64,000 nt of DNA from a virus (IMGVR_UViG_3300025880_000012:12928-76927), one strand, 5' to 3'. Counted from the first letter of the stretch, positions 30,159 through 64,000 are shown. A program made the numbers and translations. The notes: generated from the letters alone by a model not told the origin.

Positions 30159-31192
30159 GAAAGCAACTTTCTATATTGCTCTCGAACACGGTCATTGTCA
30201 GGAGAAAATTTATGTAATACGTTTTTAGCTGCCGACCTATATGTATCTATATTGTCGTCGTGAAATTTTAAAGCTCTAATTAATTGTTCTGCGCCAGTAT
30301 TAATATCATAACCAGGGTAAAAATAACCAACCTCTTTAATGTCAAAAGAATTATGTATGAGAGGTATATCTAAATATAAAGCCTCAAGGTATACATAATT
30401 TAAAGAATTTAAAATTTGATGGGAAACGATAACATTAGATGTATCAAATATATCTTTCATTGAAATTCTATCGCCAAAAAATGATTTATTGTGCTTGACT
30501 ATATCTAGTTTTGACATCAAACTTCTAAAGTATAACTTTTCTCTAAATTTAGCAGAACAATAAACTTGTAGATTATGTATTAAGTGGGGTTCTTGTTTGT
30601 AGGTCGCCTCGACTAGATAGATAGGAATTAAACAATTTTTAGTCATGTTAAGATTGGGCTCCATGATGCCAATGTTTTTGTCTTGACCGGGTTGATATCT
30701 TTGCGACGAATCCATGTATTTAGGGCTCCATATATAAGGAATATTGAAGACTTTTTGTGTATTGTAAAAAGTTTGTAAATACGGTATAGAAAAAGAATAA
30801 TGAGGAGACACCCAAACTTCGTCAATATTATCTGTATTTAATGCAACTTTATCCGTCGAGTCACAAAACTCGATATCAGTCATCAATCTATTACCATAAT
30901 GCACATGAACATGCCTACATCTTGGATTTTTACTTTTTGCGATATCAATCGTTTCTTTTTTTAATAACGATCCAGTTTGTAATACATAATCAAATTCATA
31001 GTCACCAATTTCATGTTCCTCCATGATTAAAATATCCAAAGGAGGGTCGACACATTCTTCTACATCATGATTCACGCAAATAGAAACATTATAACCCATA
31101 TCCTTGAGCATCTCCGCCAAGAATACTATATTTTGATTTAATCCATTTACGAACAAACTTCTATTAAAAGTCGCAGTTAATAATATATTCAT
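30155..31192 (-). CDS. DUF2827-like protein, paralog 2
   Basis: Same motifs. Start placed at ATG 31192 (MNILL), which aligns with MKIGI of its paralog and lies 10 nt from a GTGTA motif. Confidence 0.65.
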   Translation of the reverse strand: MNILLTATFNRSLFVNGLNQNIVFLAEMLKDMGYNVSICVNHDVEECVDPPLDILIMEEHEIGDYEFDYVLQTGSLLKKETIDIAKSKNPRCRHVHVHYGNRLMTDIEFCDSTDKVALNTDNIDEVWVSPHYSFSIPYLQTFYNTQKVFNIPYIWSPKYMDSSQRYQPGQDKNIGIMEPNLNMTKNCLIPIYLVEATYKQEPHLIHNLQVYCSAKFREKLYFRSLMSKLDIVKHNKSFFGDRISMKDIFDTSNVIVSHQILNSLNYVYLEALYLDIPLIHNSFDIKEVGYFYPGYDINTGAEQLIRALKFHDDNIDTYRSAAKNVLHKFSPDNDRVREQYRKLLS

Positions 31193-31202
31193 TAGTATAA
31201 TA

Positions 31203-31207
31203 TACAC
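31203..31207 (-). promoter_or_regulatory. GTGTA motif 10 nt before ATG 31192
   Basis: Minus strand AAAATATTTCCCCCC-ATCATTCATTG-GTGTA TATTATACTA ATG. Confidence 0.55.
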
Positions 31208-31231
31208 CAATGAATGATGGGGGGAAATATT

Positions 31232-45952: not shown

Positions 45953-46765
45953 TTATATTCTATCCGATCTATTAATGTAACCTTTATAAGATAACTGCAA
46001 TTTTAAGGATTCATTACTGCTACTTTGAATAGATTGACTTAACAGTCTGGCATTCTTGATTGTTATAGATTCAATTAATTGGTCATTAATAGGGTTACTT
46101 AAGGAAATTTCAACATCCTTCATTATAGGGGATTCTAAGTAGCTTGAAATTTTAGGCACTTCGTAGTTGTCGATATCAATACTAACATTTAATTCTTGAT
46201 ATATCGGGAAGTCCGTATGTACTTGAACGGGAAAAGGTTCACTAACTTTATAAATAGGTTCTCTATTGATACGTATAGAATAATCAAAGCTAGATACTCT
46301 ATTAGTATTGAAGCCATGAACATCAAGAAGTATTGAGCCTTGGTTTGGTATTTGTATGGGTGGGTGAGCTAAATTACCTTGATCTTTGAGGCCTTCACCA
46401 ATATCTCCATAGACCACAATAGATGCATTAGCTGTGGGAATTTGACCAATACCTGCAGATAGAGAATATTCAGTTAAAAATCCACTCAAGAAACCAAAAC
46501 TAGAATCTCCGTAATTAATGCTACCACTAATCGGTTGATCTCCAGTGTAATCAAGTAACTTTTCCTCACCAATGTAATATTTAGAAATGTTAAAATTGCC
46601 AACTAAAGAACCTTGCCTTACAGGAAAAGTGTGACCTTTACCGATGATGTTAATGGGAGATTCATCAATACTATAACCACCATCTATACTAACTACCCCC
46701 GACAATTGACACCCATCAAGAAAGAATTCCTGATCATAGTTAAAATGGGCATTTTTAAATGCCAC
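45953..46765 (-). CDS. Putative tail structural protein (tube/hub-like)
   Basis: Immediately downstream of the TMP; beta-rich; distant paralog of 44755..45948. Confidence 0.5.
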   Translation of the reverse strand: MAFKNAHFNYDQEFFLDGCQLSGVVSIDGGYSIDESPINIIGKGHTFPVRQGSLVGNFNISKYYIGEEKLLDYTGDQPISGSINYGDSSFGFLSGFLTEYSLSAGIGQIPTANASIVVYGDIGEGLKDQGNLAHPPIQIPNQGSILLDVHGFNTNRVSSFDYSIRINREPIYKVSEPFPVQVHTDFPIYQELNVSIDIDNYEVPKISSYLESPIMKDVEISLSNPINDQLIESITIKNARLLSQSIQSSSNESLKLQLSYKGYINRSDRI

Positions 46766-49700
46766 TCAGTACGCCTCCTATTTTTTGTTCTTGAGAAATA
46801 ACATTAACGACTGCATCTTTGATTCGCGATGCAAATTCTTGCTCATTTGGGCCACCTCCTTCAGTAGATACAGATCCGTTAGGTGAAACATTAATGTTAA
46901 CAGTCACATTACTAGAATTAGTTTGGTTTTCACTTTGAGTATTTACAGTTTCAGTTTTTTTACTTTCAGGACTATCTACTATACCACCCTGATTCATTTT
47001 AATAGTGTTTAATTTGTTGAAAAATCCTGGATACTTCTTTTCAACTTTCTGTACACTTGAAGCCTTAACAACATATTCACCTTTATCAAGCATCACTGGC
47101 CCAACTTTGTCAATCCCACCAGGACCGTGAACCTTGCCACCTTTACTCATGTACATTGTTTTATTTTGGTGAGACTGATCTCTAAAGTAGTTACTTTTAT
47201 TGTCAAAAGAAGAATTTTGGTTTTGATAGCTAACATTATTTATGGGGCGAGATAAATTCATATTAGAATGACTATTGATAGTATTGCGATTTATGGAAGA
47301 TACATTATTAGAGCGATCACCATCTCTAGGCGCGGAGAAAGGGTTATTAGATTTAGGTAAGTTAGTAAAAGCTGATTGATTATTATAAGAACTCATAGAG
47401 TTGATCACACTTTGATTTCTGGAGTTACCAGCATAAGAATTGAATGATTGATTTGCATTGCTATTTTTGCTATTGTGATAACGAGATTGTTTTGAATTAT
47501 CTTCATGAGAATTAAAAACTGACCCTCCATTATTGAATTGAGAATATTTATTAATAGAATGACTGGAAACACTACCGCCTTGATTAAAATTAGAGTAAGG
47601 GGATCTGCTGGAGTCAGTATTAAATACCGAGCCTCCCTGATTAAAATATGAGTGTGGATTATTAGAAGAATAATTATTACTCACAGACCCTCCTTGGTTG
47701 AAGAAAGATTGACGGGAAGAATTTGAACGTGAATTAGACGTAGAGCCTCCCTGATTAAAATATGAGTGTGGATTATTAGATGAGTAACTACTACTTACAG
47801 ATCCCCCTTGATTAAAGAGAGATTGACGGGAATCGTTTGATTGCGAATCAATGACTGATCCACCTTGATTAAAGTATGAATACGGATTACTAGAGGAAGT
47901 GGTGTTTACTGAGCCTCCTCTATTGTAATATGAATAAGCTGATGAGCTAGGAGATGAATGACTAATTAGCCCTCCACTGTAATTGCCATCAACAACACTA
48001 CATACACCTCCACTGCATTGTTGTAAACTAGACAGTTCGGATTGTAAGCCTTCCTTGGAAAAATTGTAATTTTTATATGTATCTTTATCTAATAAATACT
48101 GGATACTTTTAGTTTTCTTTGCATTGTCTACTGGTGTCAAGTCTTCATTTGACATTTTACTCAATGCATTAAGGTTGTCTGCAGCTTTGTCAGATTTATA
48201 AGCAGTAGTTACTTTATTAAAACCTTTTGAAAGCATGTTAGCTCCAAATGACATAGCTAGCCCAGTTGTTAAGTTTCCAAGCATTTGAGCTTTCTCTTGA
48301 ACTTTTTGATTTTTTTTGTCAACATCATATTGATATTTTGCGAGAAGGTATTCACCGTATTGCTTTGAATAGTCATCTTTCTTGCGAAATCTAGCACTCA
48401 TCATATTACCAGTAGGATCAATATCTAAAGCAGATTTAGTGTTTAGGCGTTGGTATGCCTTGGGTGCTTCGGGGCCACTATACTCTTCTGGTTCGCGATC
48501 TTCTTTATTGGCAAAAGATTGACCTACTAAAGTGCCGCCACCTTTAGCTATTTTCGTTAAGGCACTATCACTACCTTTACTGGATAGAGCATTTTTAGTT
48601 TTGTCCCATGCTCTCGATACCCAACTACCCTGATTAAGCTTTAATACAGTGGAATCTAATTTATCAATTGATCCAGAAAGCCTATTAATTGGACTAGAAT
48701 AATCAGCATTATCTGTTTCAAAAATAGAATTAGGTATAGCAGAATTTTCATCAGAATTTGATTGAGAGCTATTAGATTGCAATAAACTTTTAGCCATAAG
48801 TCCACCGTCGGACATTGGAGTCAAGATAGGCATTGGACCCGCACCCTCTGTAGATACATCAAACGACTCTTGGTTGGGCTGATTAAACAAGTCATCTAGG
48901 GAGCCACTTTCATTTATATTATCTAAGGCCGAAACTCCGAGTCGATCAACAATTTTCTTTTTAACGACATACTCACCAGAAGTCAACATGGAGGGAACTT
49001 TATTCGAGTTACCAACAGTACCACCCGATGCATAACCTTGTATTAAGCCACCTTGATATTTACCTCCAAAACCATCCATTAAATCAAATATTCCGCTCGT
49101 GATTTGTTTGGCAGCTCGTTCTGTCAATGCATTACTTATTGAACTTGCGATACCGCCAGCAAACTGAAGAAATGAATCGCTCATACTTTTTGTGCCATCA
49201 CCCATATTTTTCACTAAATCTTTAAAGCCATTCTCAACAGCATCAAAGGTAGTATTAGCCATAGTTTCTCCAAACTTTTCAAGAGCTAAATTGTTTTCTT
49301 TTATACGTTCTGTTATAGTATCTCTAAACAAAGTTTCTTTGCCAAGCTCGATGTTCATTTCTTTTTGCTTCTTGGCAATTTCTACATCGATCTCTGCCGT
49401 CTTAAGGGTGTTACCTTGGCTAGCATAAACTCCTTGCTTACCTTTTAATTCCTCCATATCAGCCGTCAAATTAGTTCTAACCGCTTCGTTTTCAGCTTCC
49501 CAACCAGTTAAACCCGTATTAGCTCCAGATTCAATGACGCGAGATTTGCCCTGTATGGTTTGCAATCTCTGGTCTGCCTCAGATGTTGAGAGGTCGGATT
49601 GCATTAATCCAATGTTTGCAAAATGACCTTCCGCTAATTTAACTCTGATGTCAGCAATAGTTTTTTCAAGATCTTGGCTTTCCTTAGTGATACTATTGAG

Positions 49701-52700
49701 ACTTTCTTGCAAATGTACACCTGCTTCTCTGTCAGCTTTAAATTGTTCGGTTAGATTGCCTGATTCATTTATGAGTTGATCAAATTTTACTTTCGATTCG
49801 GCTTGAAATCCAGTCATACCCTGAAATGGAGACTCAGAATCAGTGATCACTTCACGTTTTTTGGATATCGCTTGAGATTCACCTTGCGTAGAAATGTTGT
49901 CTAATTCAATTTTCTCTAAGGCTTTTTTACCAAAATCATTGCTATCCAACCTTGCTCGAGCTTCAATTAAACTTTTAGAAAAATTTATAGACTCTTCCGT
50001 CATACTTCTTGAAGCTTCCGCTTCATATTTTTTAAATTGAATATTAGCTTTATGTTGATCGGTTAAATTATTGGTTTCAGTAATCAAATCTTCAGTAGCT
50101 CCTTTTGCCTGCACTTGAAATCCAGTTAATCCAACAAGTTCGTTTTGTATATCTGGTGAGCTTGTGCCGGAAAAGTCATCTCTTGTGATTTTTTTAAGCA
50201 TGCCTTCTCTAGCTTGAGATTTACCTACAACATTACCATATTCCGTGATTGTGGATTGCTTGGCTTTTGTTGCAAAATCATTATCATCCAGTCTTTGCTG
50301 GAAATCGTTTACAGACTTAACCCAAGATCTACCTTCTTCGTCCATTGTATTTAAAGTTTCCTGCAAATGAACTCCAGCTGTTTTATCAGCTGCAAATTGT
50401 GCGGCAAGCTCTTTGCCGGCATTGGTAACCTCTGTAAGATTTAAATCTGCTTTACCTTCAAAAAATGTTTTTCCGGTATCTGGGTCGACTTCAAATTTTG
50501 TATTAGTCTCTGTGTTTGAATCTCGCATTTTTTTACCAAAGCCAGATCGCTCGTTGCGTATCCTTTCTTGTATTGTTTGTGCGGCAAGCTCTTGTAATTT
50601 TGTATTTTTTTCTTCCGCTGCAATTCGAGCTCTTTGCTTTGCGAGAGCTTCAAGTTCGTTTGTGTATTCTTCGTCGAGAGTTACGGCTAAAGATTCTGTA
50701 AGTTTAGAGATGTAATCTGAGTTTTGTAAGTAACTTCTTTTAAACCCATTAACTTCTTTTGAAATTTGTCCATTAATTATAACAGCATCAACTTCTTCTA
50801 ACATAGCTTTATTTACTTCTTGCTGCATGCCTCCTTGAATAGCAAGAAATTTTTTCAATTCATTATATCTATCTACTCGCTGCCTAGCTGCACCTACCCC
50901 ATTTTTATTAAGCTGAAATTCTTTACGTAATTGACCAAGATTGTTTTCTGCCATGGATTTTTCTTTATTCGCTACCCTTAATTGTTCATCTTTAGATTGG
51001 TTAATGGATTCAAGTTTGCTATTTAAGCCTTCACTAGAAACAACATTCATTTCTTGAAGTTTAGATAACTGCTTGGATTTCTCTGCTGAGTCGTTTAAAT
51101 TTTTAAGGTAATCTAAAGATCTAGCGTTAGCTTCTTCTGCAGATCTAACACCTTTAAGCTTAGCGGATAGCTCTGACATGCCCGCATCTGTGAGTTGTTT
51201 TTGTAATTTTTTGAGATTACCCTGAAATGCTTCTTCGGGATTTTCGCTAGCTTTTACTGTTTGAGTTCCAGCAAGAAAATGCGGTTTAGACAAGTCTTTA
51301 GTTTCCTGCATATTTGAGTCTTTGTATATATTTTTTTCGTAATCTCCCTTTAAAGTAGAGAAATTCATGCCAGTATTCTTTTTACTCCCAGCAAAAAGAT
51401 CTGCAGCTAATTTATTTTGTGCAGCAACAGCCTCGTCGTTTGCTTTTTTCTTTTTGTTTAAATATTCATTATCTATTTTTTTCTGTTCTATTGCAATTTT
51501 TTCGTTATTCTCTGTTCCTTCCGAAAGAAAACCTAGGGACTCTGTGAGTTTGGCTTGGTGGTTCATTCTTTGTATGGCATAATTTTGCTCGTCTTTAAGT
51601 AACTTGAGGTTGTTGTTTGCCATGGTAGCCTGTAGAGATATAGCGTTTAATAGCTTTCTTTTTTGAGCATTAACTTCTTTAGATATGGAGGCTTGTATTT
51701 CATTCTCTTTAGAAATCTTTTCTCCTTCATTGGCTATTTTTTGATATATGGGATTGATTAAAGATAAAGTAGTTCTAATATGTTCAGCACCTTTTCCTGA
51801 TGCCATTAATTGTAAAACAAACTCAGATAATGGTTGATTAACGTCAGCTATTTCATTAGCATAAGATTCCATCAAATCAAGATCTTTTCCATTATCTCCA
51901 TTGTTCATTCTTTGAAATTTACTCATTTGACCGAGAGCATCTTGCTTTTCTACCCCAGCAATATTCATAGTGTTAGATAAATTAAGTGCACCACTTCTAA
52001 AGTTTATGCGATCTTTTCGATCAAAATTTTCTTGAAAGATTTCTTCGTTACTTTTTCTTCTATACTTCATCCCTCCAGCCCCGAATTCACCTGTGAATCT
52101 TGAGTCAGCCAGAGTACCGAAATCTTTAGACACAAGACCAAGAGAATCTTTGCGCTCCATGCTTGTAGCAGCAGCAGTAACTGCTTGACGTATTGTAAGT
52201 TTAGTCATAGCTTCTTGCAGCTTCTCCATTCCTTGAGCTGTACCCGAAGTCATAGCTTGCAACTCATCTCCAGATAAATTTAGCTCTTTAGCTAATGTTA
52301 CAGCTGATTGTTGAAGTGCATTTTGATTTTTTATTAATGTGCTATTGAGAGACATTAATTTCATTTGCCCTTGATATGTATTAGCTTGACCAGAGTTGGT
52401 TAAGTCTGTTATTTGTTTTTGTGTTTCCTGGACAGATGTTGTAGCTTCCATTGCACTTCCAACGGCCTCAATACTTTTTGCTGTCTTTTTTGCGGATTTA
52501 TTGAGTGTATCTAAACCACTATCAAACCATTCTGTATTTTCTTTTAAAGCTGAAAATATGGGGATAACTCCAGCTACAACGCTACCAATTAAAGGTAAAC
52601 TCTTTGCCGCTCCACCTAAACTCTTTACAAAAGTACCCATTACACCTTTACTTTTCCCAAGAAACCCAGAGGTTCCTTGCAAGCTGCTTCCCCATTTTGT

Positions 52701-55700
52701 AAGCTTATCAGATAAACCTGAAGCCATTGGACTTAAAGCCTCAAAAGTTAAAGCTGCTTGGCTAGCACCTTGAGCAATACCAGTAAAAGTTTTTACCACT
52801 TGACCGGTAGTGCCCTCCATATCAGAAAATGCTCCTTCTAGCATATATGTAATGGTGGTCAAACCAAACAAACGACCTGTTAGATCAGTAGTTGCGTCGC
52901 TACCTTCGTTTGCTGATTTTGTGAGATTATTTATAGCTTCTTTACTTTGAATATACTCATTTTGGACATCTTCGGGAACTCCTTGCTTAAATTTTATCTT
53001 TCCAATTTTTGCGGGACCACTCTCATCTCCAAAATTAGGAATCAACCCACTACTAGCACCATGAGTTTTAGGATCTATGCCCATTTCCCTAGCTCTCTGG
53101 ATGCCTTGCTTTACTCCAGCAGGCTCATCACGAGTATTGGTAACAGCCAATCCCATAGGGTTTAACCGAGACTTTAAACTATCGTCTTGATCAACACGAA
53201 TCATTGATTCAGATATACCCGCAGATTTTTCACGAGCAATCGATTCAGCTAAAGGATTAGCGAAATTAGGAATTAACCCTCTATTCAAAAACATTAAGTC
53301 GGACCTAACTTCGGGGCTATTTTTCCATTCATTTATCAGAGCCTCCATTTTATCTTTTTTGATAAAAAGTTTTGTGTTGGGGTCTGTAATGTTTAAGTTC
53401 ATTTTCTGTTCGCCAGGTAAAGGTCTGCCGCTGGTGGCTTTAGTACCATAAAGACCTCTACGAGAAGATGATGAACTGTTGCCTGATTTTACTGATTTGT
53501 ATTGATCTCGATAACTTTTTTCGTAAGAATCTTTATCTTTAGTAAATTGACCCTTAAGTTTTTGCATCTGTTGTGGTGGCAGTTTTTTATTGGTCTCTAG
53601 CCACTTAACAAATTGATTCATATGGTTGCCGGTTCCTCCAAGGCCAGTATACCAGTCTTTTCCTCCATCGCGTCGATAAGCAAAACTTCTTTTAGCGAAA
53701 ACGTTTGGGGCAAAGTTAGGAATTAATCCCCTGTTAAAAATTTGCATAACCTCTCGTTCACGAGGGCTAATTTGATTTGTTCCATTAGGATTACGTCCAA
53801 TATCTGATTGAGGTACAATCTGATTCATTTGTTTATCGTAGAAATCATATTCTTTTCTACCATATTCTGTTTTATAATGTTTTAATAATGAAGGGTCATT
53901 TCTTCTGCCAGCAACATTAAGGTAGACACCGCCATTTTTTTTGGCCCACTCTTGTATGGCTCCGCTAGCCATAGCTTTTTTAAATTCTTCTACTTTAGGA
54001 TAGTATCCTTTTTTAGGGTCAGCTCCCTTACTTAGTATTCTCAATAACTTCTTTTTATTGAATACATTTTTTTCTGGAACAGTTTTAGACAGTACCTGGC
54101 CATCAGTCACTGGTTGTCCAGGAGTAATACTACCAGCAAAATTTTTAGCTACTGTTTTCGAAGTGCTAAAAGATGTAGCCCCAGAAGGCATTACATTGTT
54201 AGATTCACCTATATCCCTATAACCAGACATAGGCCCACTCACATGAGACTTAGCAAAATTTTGTATAATTTTAACAACATCTTCAGGAGTCTTAACTCCA
54301 GAAAAAGATGGCATATTTTTACCAATCGTAGGCTTATCAATTGTTGACCTTGATTTGCTTTGGCCTCTATATAAATTTAAGTTCGCAAAGTTAGGAATTA
54401 ATCCTCCAGAAGCATTTAATTCTTTAAGTTTTTCTTTGATATTTGGCTCAGCTCCTCCATCTTTAATTTGATCAAGAATCGAAGCAGCTTGGTCACCCAC
54501 ATTAACATAATCTCTAGCGTAAGTGAAAGCAATTTTAGAACCGTCGGGAATTCGCTCCCCAAGTGCGGGCTTAATTTTAGCTGAGGGGCCTTCTCGACTA
54601 TCTGAGGTGAGCTTATTTTTGTTTTCTGTAACAACATGCTTGCCAATTTTCTTGCCTCGCCTTTGGTCTGGCATGCCTATCATATCAGCTATTTTTGTTC
54701 CGTAGTTAAAACTATAAGTTTTAGTGGAATTAGATGCGGATTTACCTTTCATTGCAACTGGACGAGCCTTACTCTTGGGCTGTTTGAATCTAGAAAAGTT
54801 AAATAAACCTTGATTCATTATTTTCTTTAGTATTTTGGCGGGCCCATGACCATAATCATTTTGAGACCATATAGTATCTCCGTATGTATATGGACCCTGT
54901 ATGTCAAACAATTTGCGAAGTTTTGGGTCAGAAGATTGACTAGATATATTCTCTAAGTCAAAAGGCTTACTATCTTTACTGTATGATTTATTAAAAGCTT
55001 CCTCAACAATATACTTTTCAAAAGCATTCCCCTTGATAAATTGTTTACCTTGACCTGAACCTAGATTATTCAGTTCATTAATTTTCTTTTGGAAATTTTT
55101 TATTTCTTTTTCGTTTAAATGATACGTTAGACCTGGATGAAGAGGTGCATTTTTATTAAATAATTGAGATTCATTTAAATAATTCTTTGGAATATTTACA
55201 TCCTTGGCATATTCATCAATAGACTTGTATTGTTTAGATTGAAGTTTTGAGTATGCATTTTTATAATTGTAACTAGTAGTAAGTGGTTTATATTTTTGTT
55301 TTAATTTTTCATGCTCAGACTTACCTGCATCAAGAGCTATTTTATCTAAGTTTTTGCTGAAGGGGGTAATTAATTGTTTTTCTTTTGGGTTTGTTTTTTG
55401 CTTTTGAATTTGATTAAAAAATTTAGTAGCACTACTTAAGGATGGATCGATTGTATATTTACCTGATTCCTTCATAGAATCAAATCCTAAATTTCGAATA
55501 AATGAATTTGACTCTTTAGAGCCTGATAAAAATATATGAGAAGCTTGCAACTTAGTTAGCCCACTAGCCTTGAGAAAATCATCAATAGTACTCGAATTAT
55601 TTAATGAAGATTTAATTTTTCGATAATCTTTAACAAAGTTAGGAATCAAGCCTGAAGATAAATTATATTGTTTTATTAGTTTAGCTTGCTCTTTTAAAGA

Positions 55701-58571
55701 TAAAGATTCTGTATCGATACCAGATTGAGATAAAACATTTAAGGAGTCAGAAAAGTTTTCCTGTTGAAAAGATTGACCTTCTTTGGTTAAACCTCTTCTA
55801 CGTAGAAAATCAGAAATGCTTTTATCGCTATATAACCTAATACTCTTTGCGATTAAATTAGCTTGTTCAATTTTATTGTATTTAGATTCAATTGGAGTTA
55901 AGCCTTTACCTATTTGATCAACCTTAGCTTGATCGTGGGTCATTTTGTAACCCAGGGCTCCTGTGTATTTTTTATTAATTGCTTTATCGTACTTATCACC
56001 CACAGCTTTAGTGCTAGGAGCTCGCCTACCTTTTTTTCCTTTAGAAAAATTTTCAGTTTCTCCAATTGCACTAACCTTCCTATCTTTTCTGTTTTGTGGA
56101 TTATCATAGCTAGAGAAAAATACATCTCTAGATAAAACATTGACTCCTGATTGCTGTAATGCAAGAAGCTCTTTTTGTTGGGACTTGATATGACCAGCTA
56201 CAGTACTAACTGGAGCTTCTAATTTATGCAAGCCAGTTTTCTTGTTGCCTCTATAATCAGCGACACTAGTTTCTACTTGCATTTTAGCTTTTGGCAATTG
56301 AAGAATGTTGGTGCCAGGTATAATAGTAGCTTCATTGGCAAAGTTGGGAATGTAACCGCCATAATATACTGGAGTTCCATTTAGAGAAACAGAATGGCCT
56401 GATTGATACTTTGATCTTAAGGTTCTTAATTTGTCTAGCTGATCTTGACTGTAACCGTTTACCTTGCTAAGCCGATCTAAATATAAACTTCCACTACCTA
56501 GCTTTTGTTTTAAAAATGTTTCAACAAACCTTCTTTCGTTAGAATTATTAAGTTGAAAGTTTATGCTCTTCCCGGCTTTCTTGTTTTTAAATTTAATACC
56601 TTTATTGGCTGGATCGTTTAATGTGTCATTAATTTTTTGAGATCGAGTCCTGGGATCAATAAAATTCGGAATTAAGCCATCGAATTTATATGGGTCGAAG
56701 CCATGTTTATCTTGAAAAGTTGATTGGTATTGCTTGCCAGCTTGACTTTTTTGTGGAGGCAAAATAGCTTCTTGAGAAAACCCATCGAATTTTTTAACTG
56801 TTTCTGCATCGTTATACACGACATCGCCAACTCCTTTTATTTTAGTTTTCTTAATCTTACCAGGTTTATAACCTGCCTGTTTGGCTCCACCGGACTCAAC
56901 TACAGCTTCCATATTAGAGACCGAGGAATCTTTAGGGATAAGTCCAGAAGATGCAGTTTTGGGTTTACTTTGGGTTAGGCCAGGTGTAACTCCAGACCTT
57001 AATAATCCAGGAGCTAATGAAGCAGCTAATTGAGCTTGCCTTTCTAGGAATTTAGTTTGATCTGCAATTACTCCAAGCATAATTTGCTCTTGTTTAAGTT
57101 TGTCACCAGCATACTTATTTAATTCTAGAGCTAATTGCTTATTGTTACCTAAAGCCATAACAATAGATTCTTGAATTTTCCGTTCTTTGTCTTTAGCTGA
57201 AACTATTCCAAGAATATCTTTAAGAGAACTTTTAGCGAATTTTAAGGCATTAAAAAACAACTTACCAAATATACCGAATGCAACGACTAAACCTGGACCA
57301 GTTAAAACACTTCCTATTCCTCGAACCAAACCTTTAGCGAAATCCGAGCCCAAGGATTCTGAATCTGAGCCAAATAAATCATTTAAAGCTCCACCAGCCG
57401 AATTAATAGCATCCAATATATTTGAAATACCTGGAGCTAAAGCTAGCTCTCCTATGTTGGCAGATAATTCTTGAATGGTGAGTGAGGTTTGTTTCGCTAA
57501 AGAGGATATTGTTTGCTGGAGCTGAGCGTTTTTTTGCTGTGCTTGGTCGGTAGCACTAGCTGATATATTAGTCGCTTGCGCATACAGAGAATTCTCTCTG
57601 TTTAAATCTTTCAAAGCAGCCTTTAAGACATTAATTTGAAAAACACCACCGACTTGCTCTGCAACTGCAGCTTTCGTTGAAGATCCTAAAGTATCATAAG
57701 TTTTAGATAAACTAGTCAAGACTGTTAAAGCTGGTAGAGTGTTGCCTCTAATATCTCGAACGGCCACCCCGAGTTCTTCTAACCTATCCAAAGTACTACT
57801 TCGTTGTATACGAGTAAATATTGTTTTAAAACTATTACCAATAACAGCACCACCACGAGCTGTAATTTGTTGCGCAGAAGTTACTGCTCCTACCAACTGA
57901 TCAAAGCTTACCCCAGCATCTTGAGCTACAGCTCCAGATCGAGCTAGAGCATTAATTAAATCGTCCGCACTAACAGCAAACTTAACGTCTACTGCAGCCA
58001 ATTTATTAATTATAGAGGTAGTAGTTAGGCCAGCATCAGCAAAACCATTGACGGCAGCAGTCAAACCAGAAACTGCAGCCGCTGCATCGATTCCAGTTAG
58101 TCGAGTTAATATCAATGCATCATTGGTTCGACGTAATGTTTCCTCCATGGATAGACCTTGACGAGAGAATTCTAAAGCTGCTTCCGCAGCTATTTCTAAG
58201 CCTTGAGATGTGTTGCGAGCTACATCAAATAAGTCTCGACCAAATTTTTCTAAATTAGGCAAACTCGTACCTAATACAACATTAATGTCTGTTAAAAGTT
58301 TTTCAACTTTAATCGCTTGTATTACAACTTGAGAGAATGCTGTTGCTACACTACCTATAATGGCCGCTGATGCTCCAAATGCAATCACACGAGCGTTAGA
58401 TGCTTCTAAAGATTTAGAAAACTCATCAGCTTTTTGAGTTATTCTACCCAAAGGTTGTGTGTAATCTGATGCGCGAATTTTAACACTCAAGCCTCTACGA
58501 TTAACTCGATTGACGATATCTTGAATAGATTCGTCTAACCCTACTACTCTTCCTTTAATGTTTAATGCCAT
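46755..58571 (-). CDS. Tape measure protein (TP901-like N-terminal core) with internal cassette array
   Basis: EFSRQG, LARSGAVA..AGVSFDQL, GGAVIGNSFKTIF core; long Ala/Leu/Glu/Lys helical tracts; two GG...MLxxGEYVV motifs; located between chaperones and M/L/K/I/J. Confidence 0.9.
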   Translation of the reverse strand: MALNIKGRVVGLDESIQDIVNRVNRRGLSVKIRASDYTQPLGRITQKADEFSKSLEASNARVIAFGASAAIIGSVATAFSQVVIQAIKVEKLLTDINVVLGTSLPNLEKFGRDLFDVARNTSQGLEIAAEAALEFSRQGLSMEETLRRTNDALILTRLTGIDAAAAVSGLTAAVNGFADAGLTTTSIINKLAAVDVKFAVSADDLINALARSGAVAQDAGVSFDQLVGAVTSAQQITARGGAVIGNSFKTIFTRIQRSSTLDRLEELGVAVRDIRGNTLPALTVLTSLSKTYDTLGSSTKAAVAEQVGGVFQINVLKAALKDLNRENSLYAQATNISASATDQAQQKNAQLQQTISSLAKQTSLTIQELSANIGELALAPGISNILDAINSAGGALNDLFGSDSESLGSDFAKGLVRGIGSVLTGPGLVVAFGIFGKLFFNALKFAKSSLKDILGIVSAKDKERKIQESIVMALGNNKQLALELNKYAGDKLKQEQIMLGVIADQTKFLERQAQLAASLAPGLLRSGVTPGLTQSKPKTASSGLIPKDSSVSNMEAVVESGGAKQAGYKPGKIKKTKIKGVGDVVYNDAETVKKFDGFSQEAILPPQKSQAGKQYQSTFQDKHGFDPYKFDGLIPNFIDPRTRSQKINDTLNDPANKGIKFKNKKAGKSINFQLNNSNERRFVETFLKQKLGSGSLYLDRLSKVNGYSQDQLDKLRTLRSKYQSGHSVSLNGTPVYYGGYIPNFANEATIIPGTNILQLPKAKMQVETSVADYRGNKKTGLHKLEAPVSTVAGHIKSQQKELLALQQSGVNVLSRDVFFSSYDNPQNRKDRKVSAIGETENFSKGKKGRRAPSTKAVGDKYDKAINKKYTGALGYKMTHDQAKVDQIGKGLTPIESKYNKIEQANLIAKSIRLYSDKSISDFLRRRGLTKEGQSFQQENFSDSLNVLSQSGIDTESLSLKEQAKLIKQYNLSSGLIPNFVKDYRKIKSSLNNSSTIDDFLKASGLTKLQASHIFLSGSKESNSFIRNLGFDSMKESGKYTIDPSLSSATKFFNQIQKQKTNPKEKQLITPFSKNLDKIALDAGKSEHEKLKQKYKPLTTSYNYKNAYSKLQSKQYKSIDEYAKDVNIPKNYLNESQLFNKNAPLHPGLTYHLNEKEIKNFQKKINELNNLGSGQGKQFIKGNAFEKYIVEEAFNKSYSKDSKPFDLENISSQSSDPKLRKLFDIQGPYTYGDTIWSQNDYGHGPAKILKKIMNQGLFNFSRFKQPKSKARPVAMKGKSASNSTKTYSFNYGTKIADMIGMPDQRRGKKIGKHVVTENKNKLTSDSREGPSAKIKPALGERIPDGSKIAFTYARDYVNVGDQAASILDQIKDGGAEPNIKEKLKELNASGGLIPNFANLNLYRGQSKSRSTIDKPTIGKNMPSFSGVKTPEDVVKIIQNFAKSHVSGPMSGYRDIGESNNVMPSGATSFSTSKTVAKNFAGSITPGQPVTDGQVLSKTVPEKNVFNKKKLLRILSKGADPKKGYYPKVEEFKKAMASGAIQEWAKKNGGVYLNVAGRRNDPSLLKHYKTEYGRKEYDFYDKQMNQIVPQSDIGRNPNGTNQISPREREVMQIFNRGLIPNFAPNVFAKRSFAYRRDGGKDWYTGLGGTGNHMNQFVKWLETNKKLPPQQMQKLKGQFTKDKDSYEKSYRDQYKSVKSGNSSSSSRRGLYGTKATSGRPLPGEQKMNLNITDPNTKLFIKKDKMEALINEWKNSPEVRSDLMFLNRGLIPNFANPLAESIAREKSAGISESMIRVDQDDSLKSRLNPMGLAVTNTRDEPAGVKQGIQRAREMGIDPKTHGASSGLIPNFGDESGPAKIGKIKFKQGVPEDVQNEYIQSKEAINNLTKSANEGSDATTDLTGRLFGLTTITYMLEGAFSDMEGTTGQVVKTFTGIAQGASQAALTFEALSPMASGLSDKLTKWGSSLQGTSGFLGKSKGVMGTFVKSLGGAAKSLPLIGSVVAGVIPIFSALKENTEWFDSGLDTLNKSAKKTAKSIEAVGSAMEATTSVQETQKQITDLTNSGQANTYQGQMKLMSLNSTLIKNQNALQQSAVTLAKELNLSGDELQAMTSGTAQGMEKLQEAMTKLTIRQAVTAAATSMERKDSLGLVSKDFGTLADSRFTGEFGAGGMKYRRKSNEEIFQENFDRKDRINFRSGALNLSNTMNIAGVEKQDALGQMSKFQRMNNGDNGKDLDLMESYANEIADVNQPLSEFVLQLMASGKGAEHIRTTLSLINPIYQKIANEGEKISKENEIQASISKEVNAQKRKLLNAISLQATMANNNLKLLKDEQNYAIQRMNHQAKLTESLGFLSEGTENNEKIAIEQKKIDNEYLNKKKKANDEAVAAQNKLAADLFAGSKKNTGMNFSTLKGDYEKNIYKDSNMQETKDLSKPHFLAGTQTVKASENPEEAFQGNLKKLQKQLTDAGMSELSAKLKGVRSAEEANARSLDYLKNLNDSAEKSKQLSKLQEMNVVSSEGLNSKLESINQSKDEQLRVANKEKSMAENNLGQLRKEFQLNKNGVGAARQRVDRYNELKKFLAIQGGMQQEVNKAMLEEVDAVIINGQISKEVNGFKRSYLQNSDYISKLTESLAVTLDEEYTNELEALAKQRARIAAEEKNTKLQELAAQTIQERIRNERSGFGKKMRDSNTETNTKFEVDPDTGKTFFEGKADLNLTEVTNAGKELAAQFAADKTAGVHLQETLNTMDEEGRSWVKSVNDFQQRLDDNDFATKAKQSTITEYGNVVGKSQAREGMLKKITRDDFSGTSSPDIQNELVGLTGFQVQAKGATEDLITETNNLTDQHKANIQFKKYEAEASRSMTEESINFSKSLIEARARLDSNDFGKKALEKIELDNISTQGESQAISKKREVITDSESPFQGMTGFQAESKVKFDQLINESGNLTEQFKADREAGVHLQESLNSITKESQDLEKTIADIRVKLAEGHFANIGLMQSDLSTSEADQRLQTIQGKSRVIESGANTGLTGWEAENEAVRTNLTADMEELKGKQGVYASQGNTLKTAEIDVEIAKKQKEMNIELGKETLFRDTITERIKENNLALEKFGETMANTTFDAVENGFKDLVKNMGDGTKSMSDSFLQFAGGIASSISNALTERAAKQITSGIFDLMDGFGGKYQGGLIQGYASGGTVGNSNKVPSMLTSGEYVVKKKIVDRLGVSALDNINESGSLDDLFNQPNQESFDVSTEGAGPMPILTPMSDGGLMAKSLLQSNSSQSNSDENSAIPNSIFETDNADYSSPINRLSGSIDKLDSTVLKLNQGSWVSRAWDKTKNALSSKGSDSALTKIAKGGGTLVGQSFANKEDREPEEYSGPEAPKAYQRLNTKSALDIDPTGNMMSARFRKKDDYSKQYGEYLLAKYQYDVDKKNQKVQEKAQMLGNLTTGLAMSFGANMLSKGFNKVTTAYKSDKAADNLNALSKMSNEDLTPVDNAKKTKSIQYLLDKDTYKNYNFSKEGLQSELSSLQQCSGGVCSVVDGNYSGGLISHSSPSSSAYSYYNRGGSVNTTSSSNPYSYFNQGGSVIDSQSNDSRQSLFNQGGSVSSSYSSNNPHSYFNQGGSTSNSRSNSSRQSFFNQGGSVSNNYSSNNPHSYFNQGGSVFNTDSSRSPYSNFNQGGSVSSHSINKYSQFNNGGSVFNSHEDNSKQSRYHNSKNSNANQSFNSYAGNSRNQSVINSMSSYNNQSAFTNLPKSNNPFSAPRDGDRSNNVSSINRNTINSHSNMNLSRPINNVSYQNQNSSFDNKSNYFRDQSHQNKTMYMSKGGKVHGPGGIDKVGPVMLDKGEYVVKASSVQKVEKKYPGFFNKLNTIKMNQGGIVDSPESKKTETVNTQSENQTNSSNVTVNINVSPNGSVSTEGGGPNEQEFASRIKDAVVNVISQEQKIGGVLSGI
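47515..47985 (-). repeat. Eight ~19-aa (F/Y)N(Q/R/N)GGS(V/T) repeats within the TMP
   Basis: Visible in translation; partial nucleotide identity (GAGCCTCCCTGATTAAAATATGAGTGTGGATTATTAGA twice). Confidence 0.9.
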
Positions 58572-61292: not shown

Positions 61293-61897
61293 TGATGATA
61301 GTCCGAAGAACAACAGCTCGAGGAATAAATAAATTAATAGATTTAAGACGTTCCCCTGAATACATAGATTCAGTAAATAAAATTGTAGAAATTGAATTTG
61401 CAAAAATTAAAAATAAATTAATTTCAGATTTTAAAAGACATCCAGTTACTAGAGAAATAGAAGCAGGAGTTAATGGTAATAATATATCTAAAACTTTAGG
61501 GGGTTATGGTAATTTATTTACTTACATAGGTTTTGAATCTAGCTCAAAGCCAATCAAGCCAATATTAAGAGAATTAAATGATATACGTTTAACTAAAATA
61601 ATTTTTAGTAAAAATGGAAACTTTAATGTATTAGCAATCTATCCAAGTATTAGGCAGATTTTCGATATAACGCCACTGCCTTGGGCAGAAGGTAGGAGTT
61701 GGGCTGAGGGAATCGAAAAAGGTATTTCTGGATTAGGTTCATATTTAAATAAAAGTAATGAAAAGAGTAGATCAGGTAAAGGATTGCAAACTGAAGGTGA
61801 AATTAGAAAGTCTGGTTTTTCCCCCACTCCATATATATCGAGCATGATAAAGTCTTTTGAATTGAATGTTATTCAACTAAACAGAATTAAAATTTAA
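61292..61897 (+). CDS. Putative neck/tail-completion protein
   Basis: Basic; HPVT, GNLF, IEKG and PTPYI motifs; TGATG coupling; canonical position. Confidence 0.45.
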   Translation: MMIVRRTTARGINKLIDLRRSPEYIDSVNKIVEIEFAKIKNKLISDFKRHPVTREIEAGVNGNNISKTLGGYGNLFTYIGFESSSKPIKPILRELNDIRLTKIIFSKNGNFNVLAIYPSIRQIFDITPLPWAEGRSWAEGIEKGISGLGSYLNKSNEKSRSGKGLQTEGEIRKSGFSPTPYISSMIKSFELNVIQLNRIKI

Positions 61898-62994
61898 TGA
61901 AACCGCAGTTCCAGCACCAAGTAATTACAAGTTTTTCCCTATGGATAGACCACACAATATTAACCAGGGGGGAAGCATATCAAAATATCGATGCCACATT
62001 TTATTATCAAGACGATAGTCGACTAGACCCAGAGTTTATAGCTTTTGCATCGCCACACAAACAATGGGTAACTGATTCATCAGTAGGTGGAGCAGAAGTG
62101 ATACAAGGTATAACTTTGGATGGTAGATATATTGAAAAAAATCAACAAGGAATAAGGTATGACTATAATAATGGCAGGGTAGTTATACCTAGATTAATAG
62201 CAAATGAATCATCTAATGTTGAGGGTATTTATTCTGTTAAAGATTTTAATATATATATTACCGATCAAACAGAAGAAGAATTATTGATTGAAACTAAATT
62301 TGATACTAATAGTAGATTTGATCAAGAGATAAGCGGTGGAGTAAAGCCTTACGATCAAGTAGTTCCAGCTATATTTATATCATATGAGCAAGGATACAAT
62401 TCTCCGTTTGCATTTGGTGGTCAAGATATTACTCACTCAAGTATTAGATGTGTAGTGTTTGCTGAAAGCTCATATCAACTAGATGGGGTATTTTCTATAT
62501 TGAAAGATTTAAATAATATTGCAATATCTAATGTTGGATTCAATGAACATCCATTAAATGAATTTGGGGACTTGAAGTATGGAATATACGATTACAAGGA
62601 CTTGAGTGAAAGGTATTACAATGTAAAAAATAGCGATAGTGTTTTTCATATAGAGAATGTTAATGTTTCTAAATTGAACGATAAAATTGCAAAGAAAAGC
62701 CACCCAGGACTTTATATAGGATTTATTGATTTTCAAGTTAATGCTTATAGGTTTCCGAGAGCTGAGTTGGTTGAGCCGATTGCTACTAGACCTCCAAATG
62801 TACTGCAGGCACCTGTATCTCCATTCGAATTAGCGTTAGGACCTCAATTGCCAATGAGTCCAGTAGAATTGACATTAAATGAAGAACCTTTAGCTCCAGA
62901 AAAATTGCAATTTAACGATATACCGTTAAACCCAAAAGGCTTGACATTGAACGATACGTCTCTTGCTCCGGAAAATTTAACTTTAGTAGAATAA
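61897..62994 (+). CDS. Putative tail-terminator/neck protein with five C-terminal PxxPxxLxL repeats
   Basis: PAIFI...FAFGG...IRCVVFA terminator-like pattern; repeats at 62812-62991. Confidence 0.5.
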   Translation: MKPQFQHQVITSFSLWIDHTILTRGEAYQNIDATFYYQDDSRLDPEFIAFASPHKQWVTDSSVGGAEVIQGITLDGRYIEKNQQGIRYDYNNGRVVIPRLIANESSNVEGIYSVKDFNIYITDQTEEELLIETKFDTNSRFDQEISGGVKPYDQVVPAIFISYEQGYNSPFAFGGQDITHSSIRCVVFAESSYQLDGVFSILKDLNNIAISNVGFNEHPLNEFGDLKYGIYDYKDLSERYYNVKNSDSVFHIENVNVSKLNDKIAKKSHPGLYIGFIDFQVNAYRFPRAELVEPIATRPPNVLQAPVSPFELALGPQLPMSPVELTLNEEPLAPEKLQFNDIPLNPKGLTLNDTSLAPENLTLVE

Positions 62995-63020
62995 AAAAAA
63001 AATATTATTATTATAAAAAG

Positions 63021-63025
63021 GTGTA
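63021..63025 (+). promoter_or_regulatory. GTGTA motif 14 nt before ATG 63040
   Basis: GTGTA ATATATAAAATATC ATG. Confidence 0.55.
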
Positions 63026-63039
63026 ATATATAAAATATC

Positions 63040-64000
63040 ATGGACGAAGACGAGTTAAAATCAACAAATTTCGAAGTACTGTATAGCTTTAAGCACGTTA
63101 ATCAATTCCCCCATTTAGCAGATTACTATAAGGTTTATAGGCAAGATGGCGCTGGAGAGGCGTTCATGCACATAAATACTATTCAAGCCACTGGTTTATC
63201 AGAAAATGACATACCAATCGAAATAACTGGCAGAGATGTTGTTCCTAATTGTGGTGTTTTGTATAATTATAAAGTTAGTGCTTATAATAATAGGGGAGAA
63301 ATTGATTGTATTAATCCAACTGTTTCAGGTATTGATTTTATATGCCCAACACCAAGCTCATCTGTGACGCCAACAGCAACAGCAACACCAACGAGCACAC
63401 CAAGCGTTACACCAACTAATACAGTCACTCCAACAAATACAGTTACCCCAACTGCTAGTTCTACTCCAGCAGAGTCACCTAGTGTAACCCCAACAATTAC
63501 TCCGACAACAACTCCAAGTAATAGTGTAACTCCAAGTAACACGGTTACTCCAACTGCTAGCACAACTCCTCCAGAATCACCTAGTGCGACTCCAACAGTT
63601 ACTCCAAGTAATACAGTTACTCCAAGTAATACAGTTACTCCAAGTAATACAGTTACTCCAACAGTTACACAAACACCTGGAGCATCCACATCTCCAACTC
63701 CAACAATTACTCCAAGTAATACAGTGACACCAAGCAACACGGTTACTCCAACTGCTAGCACAACTCCTCCAGAATCACCTAGTGTGACTCCAACAATTAC
63801 TCCAAGTAATACAGTTACTCCAACAGTTACTCCAAGTAATACAGTTACTCCAACAGTTACACAAACACCTGGAGCATCCACATCTCCAACTCCAACAATT
63901 ACTCCAAGTAATACAGTGACACCAAGTAACACGGTTACTCCAACTGCTAGCACAACTCCTCCAGAATCACCTAGTGTGACTCCAACAATTACTCCAAGTA
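63040..64000 (+). CDS. 3'-truncated FN3-like domain plus long Pro-Thr-Ser (mucin-like) repeat protein; absent from the ORF track
   Basis: Open frame [17 protein letters not shown]...ADYYKVYR...[13 protein letters not shown]...[12 protein letters not shown]... to the window end. Confidence 0.85.
63345..64000 (+). repeat. Hierarchical [10 protein letters not shown] repeats with larger duplicated blocks
   Basis: ACTCCAAGTAATACAGTT units; ACACAAACACCTGGAGCATCCACATCTCCAACTCCA at about 63667 and 63859. Confidence 0.9.

What the first reader, a model, noticed from the sequence alone, without database searches (positions are those of the whole stretch)
62812..63345. Orphan FN3 A-strands next to an FN3 domain lacking its A-strand: possible donor-strand docking of fibres
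Seen: the neck protein ends with five units, PVSPFELAL, PMSPVELTL, PLAPEKLQF, PLNPKGLTL and SLAPENLTL. The next gene starts with an FN3-like domain ([26 protein letters not shown]) with no PxxPxxL strand, followed by a mucin-like stalk. Gene 31641..34418 also begins at a B-strand ([11 protein letters not shown]) and has a Pro-Thr tail. Known: P-x-aP-x-nL-x-v is the FN3 first-strand consensus, and donor-strand complementation builds chaperone-usher pili. Inference: each repeat completes an incomplete FN3 in trans, docking up to five stalked proteins per neck subunit.
Basis: inference. Interest (0 to 1): 0.8.

Follow-up and report, generated by a model that had tools for sequence, protein, structure and literature searches.

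The report
Split FN3 joint at phage neck
An uncultured marine phage's tail-terminator protein ends in five copies of the first strand of an FN3 domain, and the next gene encodes a long mucin-like fibre whose FN3 domain lacks that strand, so the fibre is probably plugged onto the neck by strand donation, a joint not described for phages.

Summary
ORF 61897..62994 ends in five P-x-x-P-x-x-L-x-L units. ORF 63040.. opens with an FN3-fold domain with only ten residues ahead of its B strand, followed by a Pro/Thr stalk.

New here:
- The "neck protein" has a tail-terminator fold (Z about 11 to Mu, T5 p142 and T4 gp15).
- The two ORFs are separate genes, with no recoding.
- All ~30 homologous fibre genes lack the A strand.
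- Among 107 distinct loci, terminators with repeats are followed by this fibre gene wherever a next ORF is present. The 73 terminators without repeats never are.
- Natural fusions exist from at least two independent events. In the one modelled, the repeat is the A strand of a complete FN3.
- A tethered AlphaFold model puts repeat 1 in the A-strand slot, but at pLDDT about 50.

Not supported:
- Five fibres docked per subunit. No relative searched holds more than one such gene, one of them a complete genome.
- A strand-less FN3 at the start of gene 31641..34418.

Verdict: trans strand complementation between terminator tail and fibre is the best reading, at about 50%. It is unproven because no multimer model or experiment was possible. 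It would be a new variant of donor-strand complementation. I found no phage precedent.

The parts
61897..62994 (+). Tail terminator protein gene (365 aa): core of about 290 aa plus a C-terminal tail of about 75 aa
   Evidence: The fold of the homologous core (P0063 model) matches the Mu terminator (Z 11.1), T5 p142 (Z 11.0, 143 of 159 residues) and T4 gp15 (Z 10.6). In relatives the gene lies directly upstream of the major-tail-protein-like gene.
62812..62838 (+). Repeat 1, PVSPFELAL. Present in all tail-bearing homologues and orthologous to the cis A strand of the fused forms
   Evidence: Alignment A1; P0063 model; the read-through model places it at the A-strand position.
62851..62877 (+). 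Repeat 2, PMSPVELTL
62887..62913 (+). Repeat 3, PLAPEKLQF
62923..62949 (+). Repeat 4, PLNPKGLTL
62959..62985 (+). Repeat 5, SLAPENLTL, followed by VE and the stop codon
62995..63039 (.). A/T-rich intergenic spacer of 45 nt with stops in all three frames and AAGGTG upstream of the ATG; no terminator
   Evidence: Sequence. In 28 homologous loci the gap is 22-61 nt and the frame relation is random. No terminator-like site.
63040..63345 (+). N-terminal FN3-fold domain of the fibre, strands B, C, C', E, F and G only. The ten residues before strand B are not a strand
   Evidence: AF2 pLDDT 80-89 with six strands. Z 9.3-10.6 and rmsd about 2.1-3 A to FN3 structures. Homologues start 1-21 residues before strand B.
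63346..64000 (+). Pro/Thr/Ser-rich mucin-like stalk of the fibre, cut by the contig end
   Evidence: Translation; 192-nt DNA repeat at 94% identity. Complete homologues are 454-975 aa with a C-terminal globular domain of about 170-200 aa.

Best explanation
The 365-aa protein is the tail terminator, the ring that caps the tail tube under the head. Its C-terminal tail carries one to five copies, five here, of a nine-residue segment with the sequence pattern of an FN3 A strand. The next gene encodes a fibre with three parts: an N-terminal FN3 domain made without its A strand, a long and probably O-glycosylated Pro/Thr stalk, and a distal globular domain. I propose that at least one tail repeat, most likely repeat 1, inserts beside strand B of the fibre's FN3 and completes the sandwich in trans. 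That would plug the fibres onto the neck as whiskers.

Shown: the two genes, their folds, the missing strand, their co-occurrence, and the cis fusions.

Inferred: the trans insertion itself, its stoichiometry, and the neck location on the virion.
For: 1. The fibre's FN3 has six strands and a disordered N-terminus in the AF2 model. Maximal ORFs of about 30 homologues leave 1-21 residues before strand B, often just two, e.g. MAYKVYYSF.

2. The repeat consensus is P-l-A-P-y-n-L-t-L. This is the pattern at the start of canonical FN3 domains that appeared among the domain's distant hits, e.g. PAQPANLTA.

3. In the natural fusion P0063 the single repeat forms a strand (317-324), six residues before strand B (331-338). 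Residues 311-428 superpose on whole FN3 domains: 88 of 88 residues of 3wih_A, 97 of 100 of 6x39, Z about 10.

4. Among 107 distinct terminators, 73 without a tail are followed by the major-tail-protein-like gene and never by the FN3 gene. 27 with repeats are followed by the A-less FN3 gene. The one fused form with context (L129) is followed directly by the tail-protein gene.

5. In the core tree the fused clade P0060-P0070 is sister to the split clade, and the fused P0049 is nested inside the tail clade. That gives at least two fusion or fission events exactly at the A/B boundary.

6. A tethered model was made by reading the natural intergenic spacer through with TAA=G and using six paired rows. 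All 50 best FN3 matches begin at model residues 11-26, where repeat 1 lies, and DSSP calls a strand at 28-30.

7. In two loci every repeat carries a Cys (P..P.CL.L). Only there does the FN3 carry an extra Cys at the end of strand B (YSFCH).

8. The genes are adjacent with no terminator between them.
Against: - The docked repeat has pLDDT of only about 50, and repeats 2-5 score 39-47. I had no coordinates, no PAE and no multimer run.
- All tail-bearing forms are one clade (98 support), so the co-occurrence may reflect a single acquisition.
- A six-stranded FN3 could be stable alone and bind elsewhere.
- Repeat number (1-5) does not match the single fibre gene per genome, so most repeats have no assigned role.
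- The Cys co-variation may be one evolutionary event. Both partners then have even Cys counts, so internal disulfides are possible, and a naive A/B register puts the two Cys one position out of phase.
- No Pfam FN3 hit for any of these proteins.
Confidence: 0.5

Rival explanations
1. There is no strand donation. The repeats are a proline-rich spacer or display arm on the terminator. In relatives this arm carries cis domains: FN3, the 'VYVPC' domain, or Big_13/Ig_J domains. The fibre's FN3 would be a self-sufficient six-stranded domain that binds the virion through an ordinary surface, or serves only as decoration.
For: - AF2 folds the FN3 body confidently without a confident A strand.
- Terminator tails in relatives do carry cis domains after the repeats.
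- Co-occurrence is confined to one clade.
- Ig-like decoration of phage structural proteins is common (general knowledge; Fraser et al. 2006, from memory).
Against: - It does not explain why every separate fibre gene lacks exactly the A strand, while every fused form has a repeat at exactly that place.
- It does not explain why P1, P4, L7 and L9 are conserved over 205 repeats.
- It does not explain the Cys co-variation.
Confidence: 0.3
2. The repeats pair with something else. They might pair with each other across the six terminator subunits to form a beta collar, or with the Ig-like domains of the tail tube proteins. The fibre's exposed B edge would then be satisfied by self-association of fibres.
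For: - The repeats have beta propensity: strands at 28-30 and 77-80 in the model.
- There are several repeats per tail but one fibre gene per genome.
- The second tail-protein paralogue has a weak Calx-beta-like match (E 0.00015, 22.2 bits, below Pfam's 27-bit cutoff).
Against: - No data point to such partners.
- In core-only phages the same tail proteins exist without any repeats.
- The fused forms show that the repeat's cis partner is the FN3.
Confidence: 0.12
3. It is one gene: the FN3 is joined to the terminator by read-through, by frameshifting on the A-run at the stop codon, or the split is an assembly error.
For: - The two ORFs are in the same frame in this window, and a run of ten A follows the stop codon.
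- Ig-like domains are often added to phage tail proteins by frameshifting (general knowledge).
Against: - All three frames carry stops in the 45-nt spacer, and there are two in-frame TAA.
- In 28 distinct loci the gap is 22-61 nt, and only 8 of 28 share a frame, as chance predicts.
Confidence: 0.02

Closest known systems
Donor-strand complementation/exchange of chaperone-usher pili (PapD/FimC systems)
   Same: An incomplete immunoglobulin-type sandwich is completed by a beta strand supplied by another polypeptide. The donor is a short extension with alternating hydrophobic residues.
   Different: - The fold here is FN3, and the missing strand is the N-terminal A strand, not the C-terminal G strand.
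- The donor is a C-terminal tail with several tandem copies.
- No chaperone or usher is present.
- The result would be hetero-docking of a fibre on a ring, not polymerisation.
- The context is a phage virion.
- Nothing has been shown experimentally.
Phage tail terminator proteins (lambda gpU, T5 p142, T4 gp15, Mu terminator)
   Same: The core fold matches (Z 10.6-11.1), and in relatives the gene lies directly upstream of the major tail protein gene.
   Different: - The core is about 290 aa rather than 130-270 aa, so it carries inserted material.
- It has a C-terminal tail of FN3 A-strand repeats, or cis FN3, VYVPC or Ig-like domains in relatives. I found no such terminator tail in four literature searches.
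Ig-like/FN3 decoration domains on phage structural proteins (e.g. lambda gpV C-terminus, SPP1 gp17.1*, T4 Hoc; from memory)
   Same: An FN3/Ig-like domain is associated with the C-terminus of a tail protein. The fused relatives (P0060-P0070, P0049) are ordinary examples.
   Different: Here the domain is split between strands A and B across two genes, without recoding. The B-G part has become the N-terminal anchor of a long fibre.
Neck whiskers and collar fibres (T4 fibritin; neck passage structure of lactococcal P335 phages; from memory)
   Same: The proposed product is a set of fibres attached at the head-tail junction, with a distal globular domain.
   Different: There is no sequence or fold relation. 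Attachment would be by fold complementation, and the stalk is mucin-like Pro/Thr rather than a coiled coil.
Engineered split domains (SpyTag/SpyCatcher from CnaB2; FN3 fragment complementation; anastellin; from memory)
   Same: A single strand peptide reconstitutes an Ig-like or FN3 sandwich. Removing N-terminal strands of FN3 exposes a reactive edge.
   Different: Those are man-made or proteolytic products. This would be a natural, genetically encoded split, and no isopeptide chemistry is indicated.

Membership tests
Fibronectin type III fold (fibre N-terminal domain) | Seven-strand sandwich (A-B-E / C'-C-F-G) superposable on solved FN3 domains | tested here: met
   The body superposes with Z 9.3-10.6 and rmsd about 2.1-3 A over 83-107 residues on monobodies, tencon, titin and integrin beta4 FN3. 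The chain's own residues supply only six strands, B to G.
Fibronectin type III fold (fibre N-terminal domain) | Own N-terminal A strand (P-x-x-P-x-x-L-x-V) preceding strand B | tested here: not met
   Ten polar residues precede strand B and form no strand. An in-frame stop at 63031 forbids extension. Homologues have 1-21 residues there.
Fibronectin type III fold (fibre N-terminal domain) | Match to Pfam fn3 (PF00041) | tested here: not met
   No Pfam hit at E <= 1 or E <= 10 for the fused and read-through forms. There is only weak phmmer similarity to canonical FN3 proteins, E about 1e-6.
Tail terminator protein (gpU/gp15/p142 type) | Terminator fold | tested here: met
   9lj8_A Z 11.1; 8bcp_A Z 11.0 (143 of 159 residues aligned); 4huh_B Z 10.6; also pyocin and diffocin collars and the SaPI1 neck. 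This was measured on the homologue P0063 (53% identical core), not on the window protein itself.
Tail terminator protein (gpU/gp15/p142 type) | Gene immediately upstream of the major tail protein gene | tested here: met
   In 73 core-only loci the next gene is the NRVIYQSEALF protein, which in several loci is followed directly by the tape measure gene. In this window the contig ends before that gene.
Tail terminator protein (gpU/gp15/p142 type) | Hexameric ring capping the tail tube in the virion | not testable with these tools
   Needs cryo-EM or a multimer model.
Donor-strand complementation (chaperone-usher type) | Acceptor domain lacks one edge strand, leaving a groove | tested here: met
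   The A strand is missing in all homologues. Here it is strand A of an FN3, whereas pilins lack strand G.
Donor-strand complementation (chaperone-usher type) | The strand from another polypeptide occupies the groove | tested here: inconclusive
   The tethered AF2 model puts repeat 1 at the A position, but at pLDDT about 50. No multimer prediction was available.
Donor-strand complementation (chaperone-usher type) | Dedicated periplasmic chaperone and usher | tested here: not met
   No such families appeared in the Pfam and PHROG scans of about 25 of the window's ORFs, not all of them. They are not expected for a cytoplasmically assembled virion.

The most novel reading that the evidence does not exclude
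The terminator tail is a multivalent socket strip. Every repeat, two to five per subunit, captures one copy of the fibre by donating its A strand. A hexameric terminator would then carry up to 30 glycosylated mucin-like whiskers, and in some lineages each joint would be locked by a disulfide (P..P.CL.L with YSFCH). This would be a natural, modular 'strand-tag / catcher' system used for virion assembly.
Probability: 0.15. Interest if true: 0.85.

Novelty: new variant of a known kind. Interest (0 to 1): 0.62.

Why it matters
If confirmed, this would be the first natural case I know of with these three features:
- An FN3 domain genetically split between strands A and B and reassembled from two virion proteins.
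- Donor-strand complementation used to build a phage.
- A tail terminator serving as the socket for neck fibres.

It would explain how a widespread group of uncultured marine phages attaches long mucin-like fibres. The group has hundreds of terminator homologues in metagenomes and none in the cultured-phage collection. The fibres are probably glycosylated.

It would also provide a small, natural peptide/domain docking pair of nine residues plus about 95 residues, with several sequence variants, of possible use as a protein-assembly tag.

The genomic evidence makes the idea directly testable with two short constructs.

Tried and rejected
- The contigs of the fused forms P0049 and P0060-P0068, and of the Cys-bearing tails P0006, P0010, P0015 and P0018, could not be fetched. 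The search for related loci in viral and metagenome contigs did not return them either.
- **Family searches.** Pfam and PHROGs on the terminator, the fibre and their neighbours gave nothing useful. tblastn of the terminator against 50,697 phage records found no match. A profile search of PDB sequences gave only noise.
- **Alignment problems.** Full-length read-through alignments (A2, A3) were misaligned by global MAFFT and discarded. The shorter A4 was used instead.
- **Recoding** (read-through or frameshift) was rejected.
- **Second A-less FN3 in this genome.** Gene 31641..34418 and all other ORFs of the 77-kb contig gave no hit to the FN3 profile even with filters off, and no Pfam hit.
- **More than one A-less FN3 gene per genome.** Four relatives have exactly one each, including a genome rated 100% complete.
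- **The 'VYVPC' domain** that follows the last repeat in some relatives showed no detectable relation to the FN3 (hhalign probability 0.9%) or to any PDB sequence.
- **Other look-ups.** The ESM Atlas gave nothing usable. Four literature searches found no precedent.
- **Longer fusions.** A search for the terminator fused to a whole fibre found only the ~760-aa forms with Big_13/Ig_J domains.

Full report
**Observation**

The window is the last 64 kb of a 76,927-bp IMG/VR virus contig, and the window end is the contig end. ORF 61897..62994 (365 aa) ends with five units:
- PVSPFELAL (62812-62838)
- PMSPVELTL (62851-62877)
- PLAPEKLQF (62887-62913)
- PLNPKGLTL (62923-62949)
- SLAPENLTL (62959-62985)

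After a 45-nt A/T-rich spacer, ORF 63040.. begins [17 protein letters not shown]. It continues with [22 protein letters not shown] and GIDFICP, then becomes a Pro/Thr/Ser stalk that runs off the contig.

The motif P..P..[LIVMF].[LIVMF] occurs two or more times in no other ORF of at least 100 aa on the contig. The five units are not a DNA-level tandem repeat, whereas the stalk is a 192-nt repeat at 94% identity, which explains the assembly break.

**Two genes, not one**

All three frames have stops in the spacer, and two in-frame TAA separate the ORFs. In 28 distinct homologous loci the gap is 22-61 nt. Only 8 of the 28 pairs share a frame, as chance predicts. No terminator-like site lies between the genes. 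Read-through, frameshifting and assembly error are therefore rejected.

**What the first protein is**

It has no Pfam or PHROG hit and no match in 50,697 phage records. It does have 647 homologues in metagenomes. These come in four lengths:
- core only, 281-303 aa, ending at RFPR;
- core plus 1-5 repeats, 329-388 aa;
- core plus repeats plus a ~120-aa domain ending VYVPC, about 452-466 aa; the 760-aa forms add Big_13/Ig_J domains;
- core plus repeat plus an FN3-like domain, 417-500 aa.

I modelled the fused homologue P0063 with AF2 (mean pLDDT 77). Its residues 3-297 superpose on tail terminators:

| Structure | Chain | Z | Aligned |
|---|---|---|---|
| Phage Mu terminator | 9lj8_A | 11.1 | 132 of 176 |
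| T5 p142 | 8bcp_A | 11.0 | 143 of 159 |
| T4 gp15 | 4huh_B | 10.6 | 162 of 202 |

Pyocin and diffocin collars and the SaPI1 neck also match.

In 73 core-only loci the next gene is a protein starting ..NRVIYQSEALF. In several of those loci the tape measure gene follows it directly, so it is the likely major tail protein.

**What the second protein is**

Complete homologues are 454-975 aa. They consist of:
- the ~95-aa N-terminal domain;
- 250-650 aa of Pro/Thr/Ser stalk;
- a conserved C-terminal globular domain of about 170-200 aa.

The N-terminal domain was modelled at pLDDT 80-89. Its six strands are B 108-116, C 126-133, C' 140-146, E 157-165, F 171-180 and G 191-196, in the numbering of the 202-aa construct. 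It superposes on FN3 domains with Z 9.3-10.6 and rmsd about 2.1-3 A. Pfam fn3 does not hit it, and phmmer reaches canonical FN3 proteins only at E about 1e-6.

The ten residues before strand B form no strand. The stop at 63031 excludes a longer N-terminus. In about 30 homologues the maximal ORF leaves 1-21 residues, often two (MAYKVYYSF), before strand B. The absence of the A strand is therefore a conserved property of the separate gene.

**The repeats are A strands**

The consensus over 205 repeats is P-l-A-P-y-n-L-t-L, with P1, P4, L7 and L9 nearly invariant. Canonical FN3 domains retrieved as distant hits open the same way, e.g. PAQPANLTA.

In the fused P0063 the single repeat, orthologous to repeat 1 here, forms a strand (YGLTLTKD, 317-324) six residues before strand B (YDVNWEFN, 331-338). 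Residues 311-428 cover whole FN3 structures: 88 of 88 residues of 3wih_A and 97 of 100 of 6x39. So in cis the repeat is the A strand of a complete FN3.

**Genomic linkage**

I collected 107 distinct terminators with context from viral and metagenome contigs.
- The 73 core-only forms are followed by the tail-protein gene and never by the FN3 gene.
- All 27 forms with repeats that have a next ORF are followed by the A-less FN3 fibre gene (23 with tail only, 4 with VYVPC).
- The single fused form with context (L129) is followed directly by the tail-protein gene.

A quick maximum-likelihood tree of the core shows the following:
- All extended forms make one clade (support 98).
- The fused clade P0060-P0070 is sister to the split clade.
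- The fused P0049 is nested within the tail-only clade (support 99).

So fusion or fission at exactly the A/B boundary happened at least twice. Because the extended forms are one clade, the co-occurrence itself counts as roughly one evolutionary event.

**Proxy for the complex**

No multimer tool was available. I translated window:62749-63354 with TAA read as Gly, so that the natural spacer acts as a 16-residue tether between the tail and the FN3. I aligned it with five equivalent read-through rows from other loci and 15 FN3-only rows (A4).

In the best AF2 model, repeats 2-5 and the tether have pLDDT 39-47. Residues 27-33 (repeat 1) rise just above 50, and 28-30 are called strand. All 50 best structural matches to complete FN3 domains start at model residues 11-26 and end at 196-202. 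For example, 88 of the 89 residues of monobody 7jw7_B are aligned, with trimming of low-confidence stretches turned off.

So the model places repeat 1 where the A strand belongs, while the domain's own N-terminus is not used. This is suggestive only. Confidence is low, only ranges were visible to me, and repeat 1 is also the repeat best covered by the alignment.

**Cysteine co-variation**

In two loci (L147, L151) the repeats read P..P.CL.L, in three or four repeats per tail. Only in these two does the FN3 read YSFCH at the end of strand B, where the other 26 have L, K, E or D. The first half of strand A and the end of strand B are neighbours in an FN3.

This hints at a direct, possibly disulfide-locked contact, and at equivalence of the repeats. 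The caveats are these:
- The two FN3s belong to one subgroup, so this may be a single event.
- Both partners have even Cys counts.
- A naive register puts the two Cys one position out of phase.

**What is not supported**

- Gene 31641..34418 gives no hit to the FN3 profile with filters off or to Pfam.
- Each of four relatives, including a genome rated 100% complete (146 kb), has exactly one A-less FN3 gene. If several repeats dock, they must dock copies of the same fibre. Nothing tested here speaks to stoichiometry.
- The VYVPC domain, which the last repeat runs into, has no detectable relation to FN3 or to PDB sequences.

**Mechanism proposed (about 50%)**

The terminator ring projects six C-terminal tails. 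At least repeat 1 of each tail inserts antiparallel to strand B of a fibre's N-terminal FN3 and completes the sandwich. This anchors mucin-like fibres at the head-tail junction. The distal domain and the stalk would mediate reversible adhesion. The stalk is probably glycosylated, since GT25-GT8-GT34 and DUF2827 genes lie elsewhere in the window.

Rivals:
- The repeats are only a display arm and the six-strand FN3 is self-sufficient (about 30%).
- The repeats pair with other partners (about 12%).
- Recoding joins the two ORFs (about 2%).

**Comparison and novelty**

The principle matches donor-strand complementation of chaperone-usher pili, but the following differ:
- the fold (FN3);
- the strand (N-terminal A, not C-terminal G);
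- the donor (a tandem C-terminal tail);
- the machinery (no chaperone or usher);
- the outcome (hetero-docking, not polymerisation).

The fused relatives are ordinary cases of Ig-like decoration of phage tail proteins. Four full-text searches found no report of strand complementation in phage tails, or of terminators carrying such tails. I rate it a new variant of a known kind. It is well grounded genomically and unproven structurally.

**Limits**

- The terminator fold was measured on a homologue with a 53% identical core.
- The tree is the quick version.

Noticed in passing
window 26662..31210 (-) and 31641..34418 (-): A 798-aa GT25+GT8+GT34-like triple glycosyltransferase and two DUF2827 proteins lie next to a 925-aa protein with a perfect Pro/Thr/Ser C-terminal repeat. 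Together with the Pro/Thr stalk of ORF 63040, this suggests phage-encoded O-glycosylation of mucin-like virion fibres. Other first-stage notes on this window say the same.
   Followed up: partly
L147:1753-2384 and L151:6570-7168: Tails whose repeats all carry Cys (PFCLEL, PECLDL...; PFCLTL, PTCLSL, PECLTL, PTCLTL) are paired with fibre FN3 domains that have an extra Cys (YSFCH). No other pair has either feature.
   Followed up: partly
L003:9006-9359, L010:9000-9356, L008:8001-10280: In some relatives the last repeat (PYAPYGLFLT) runs straight into a ~120-aa all-beta-looking domain ending VYVPC. The 760-aa forms add Big_13/Ig_J-like domains. The VYVPC domain has no detectable relatives.
   Followed up: partly
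L011:9046-11829 (fibre residues ~200-310) and L143:1088-4012 (residues ~275-385): Some fibres carry an internal globular insert within the stalk, with the motifs HPFWIKT / HPFLIKT and C-x-[VI]-HS-x-M-SG. This is reminiscent of a type-1 copper (cupredoxin) site. It was seen only by eye.
   Followed up: no
L002, L003, L004, L007, L009, L012 and the window end: Many contigs of this phage group end about 0.7-2.5 kb after the terminator gene, inside the repetitive Pro/Thr stalk. The stalk systematically breaks assemblies, so fibre genes of this kind are under-represented as complete ORFs.
   Followed up: no
L153:9115-9495, L155, L135: In one subgroup the fibre starts with a 20-aa Pro/Thr-rich leader (MDPTPSVTQSVTPSAEVQYLN) before strand B, and the terminator tail ends in a different C-terminal peptide (..DYIKAWRETFDPGYKDK) after two repeats.
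   Followed up: no
window 46755..58571 (-): The tape measure protein is 3938 aa. It is on the opposite strand to the terminator and fibre genes, whereas in core-only relatives terminator, tail protein and tape measure are collinear on one strand.
   Followed up: no
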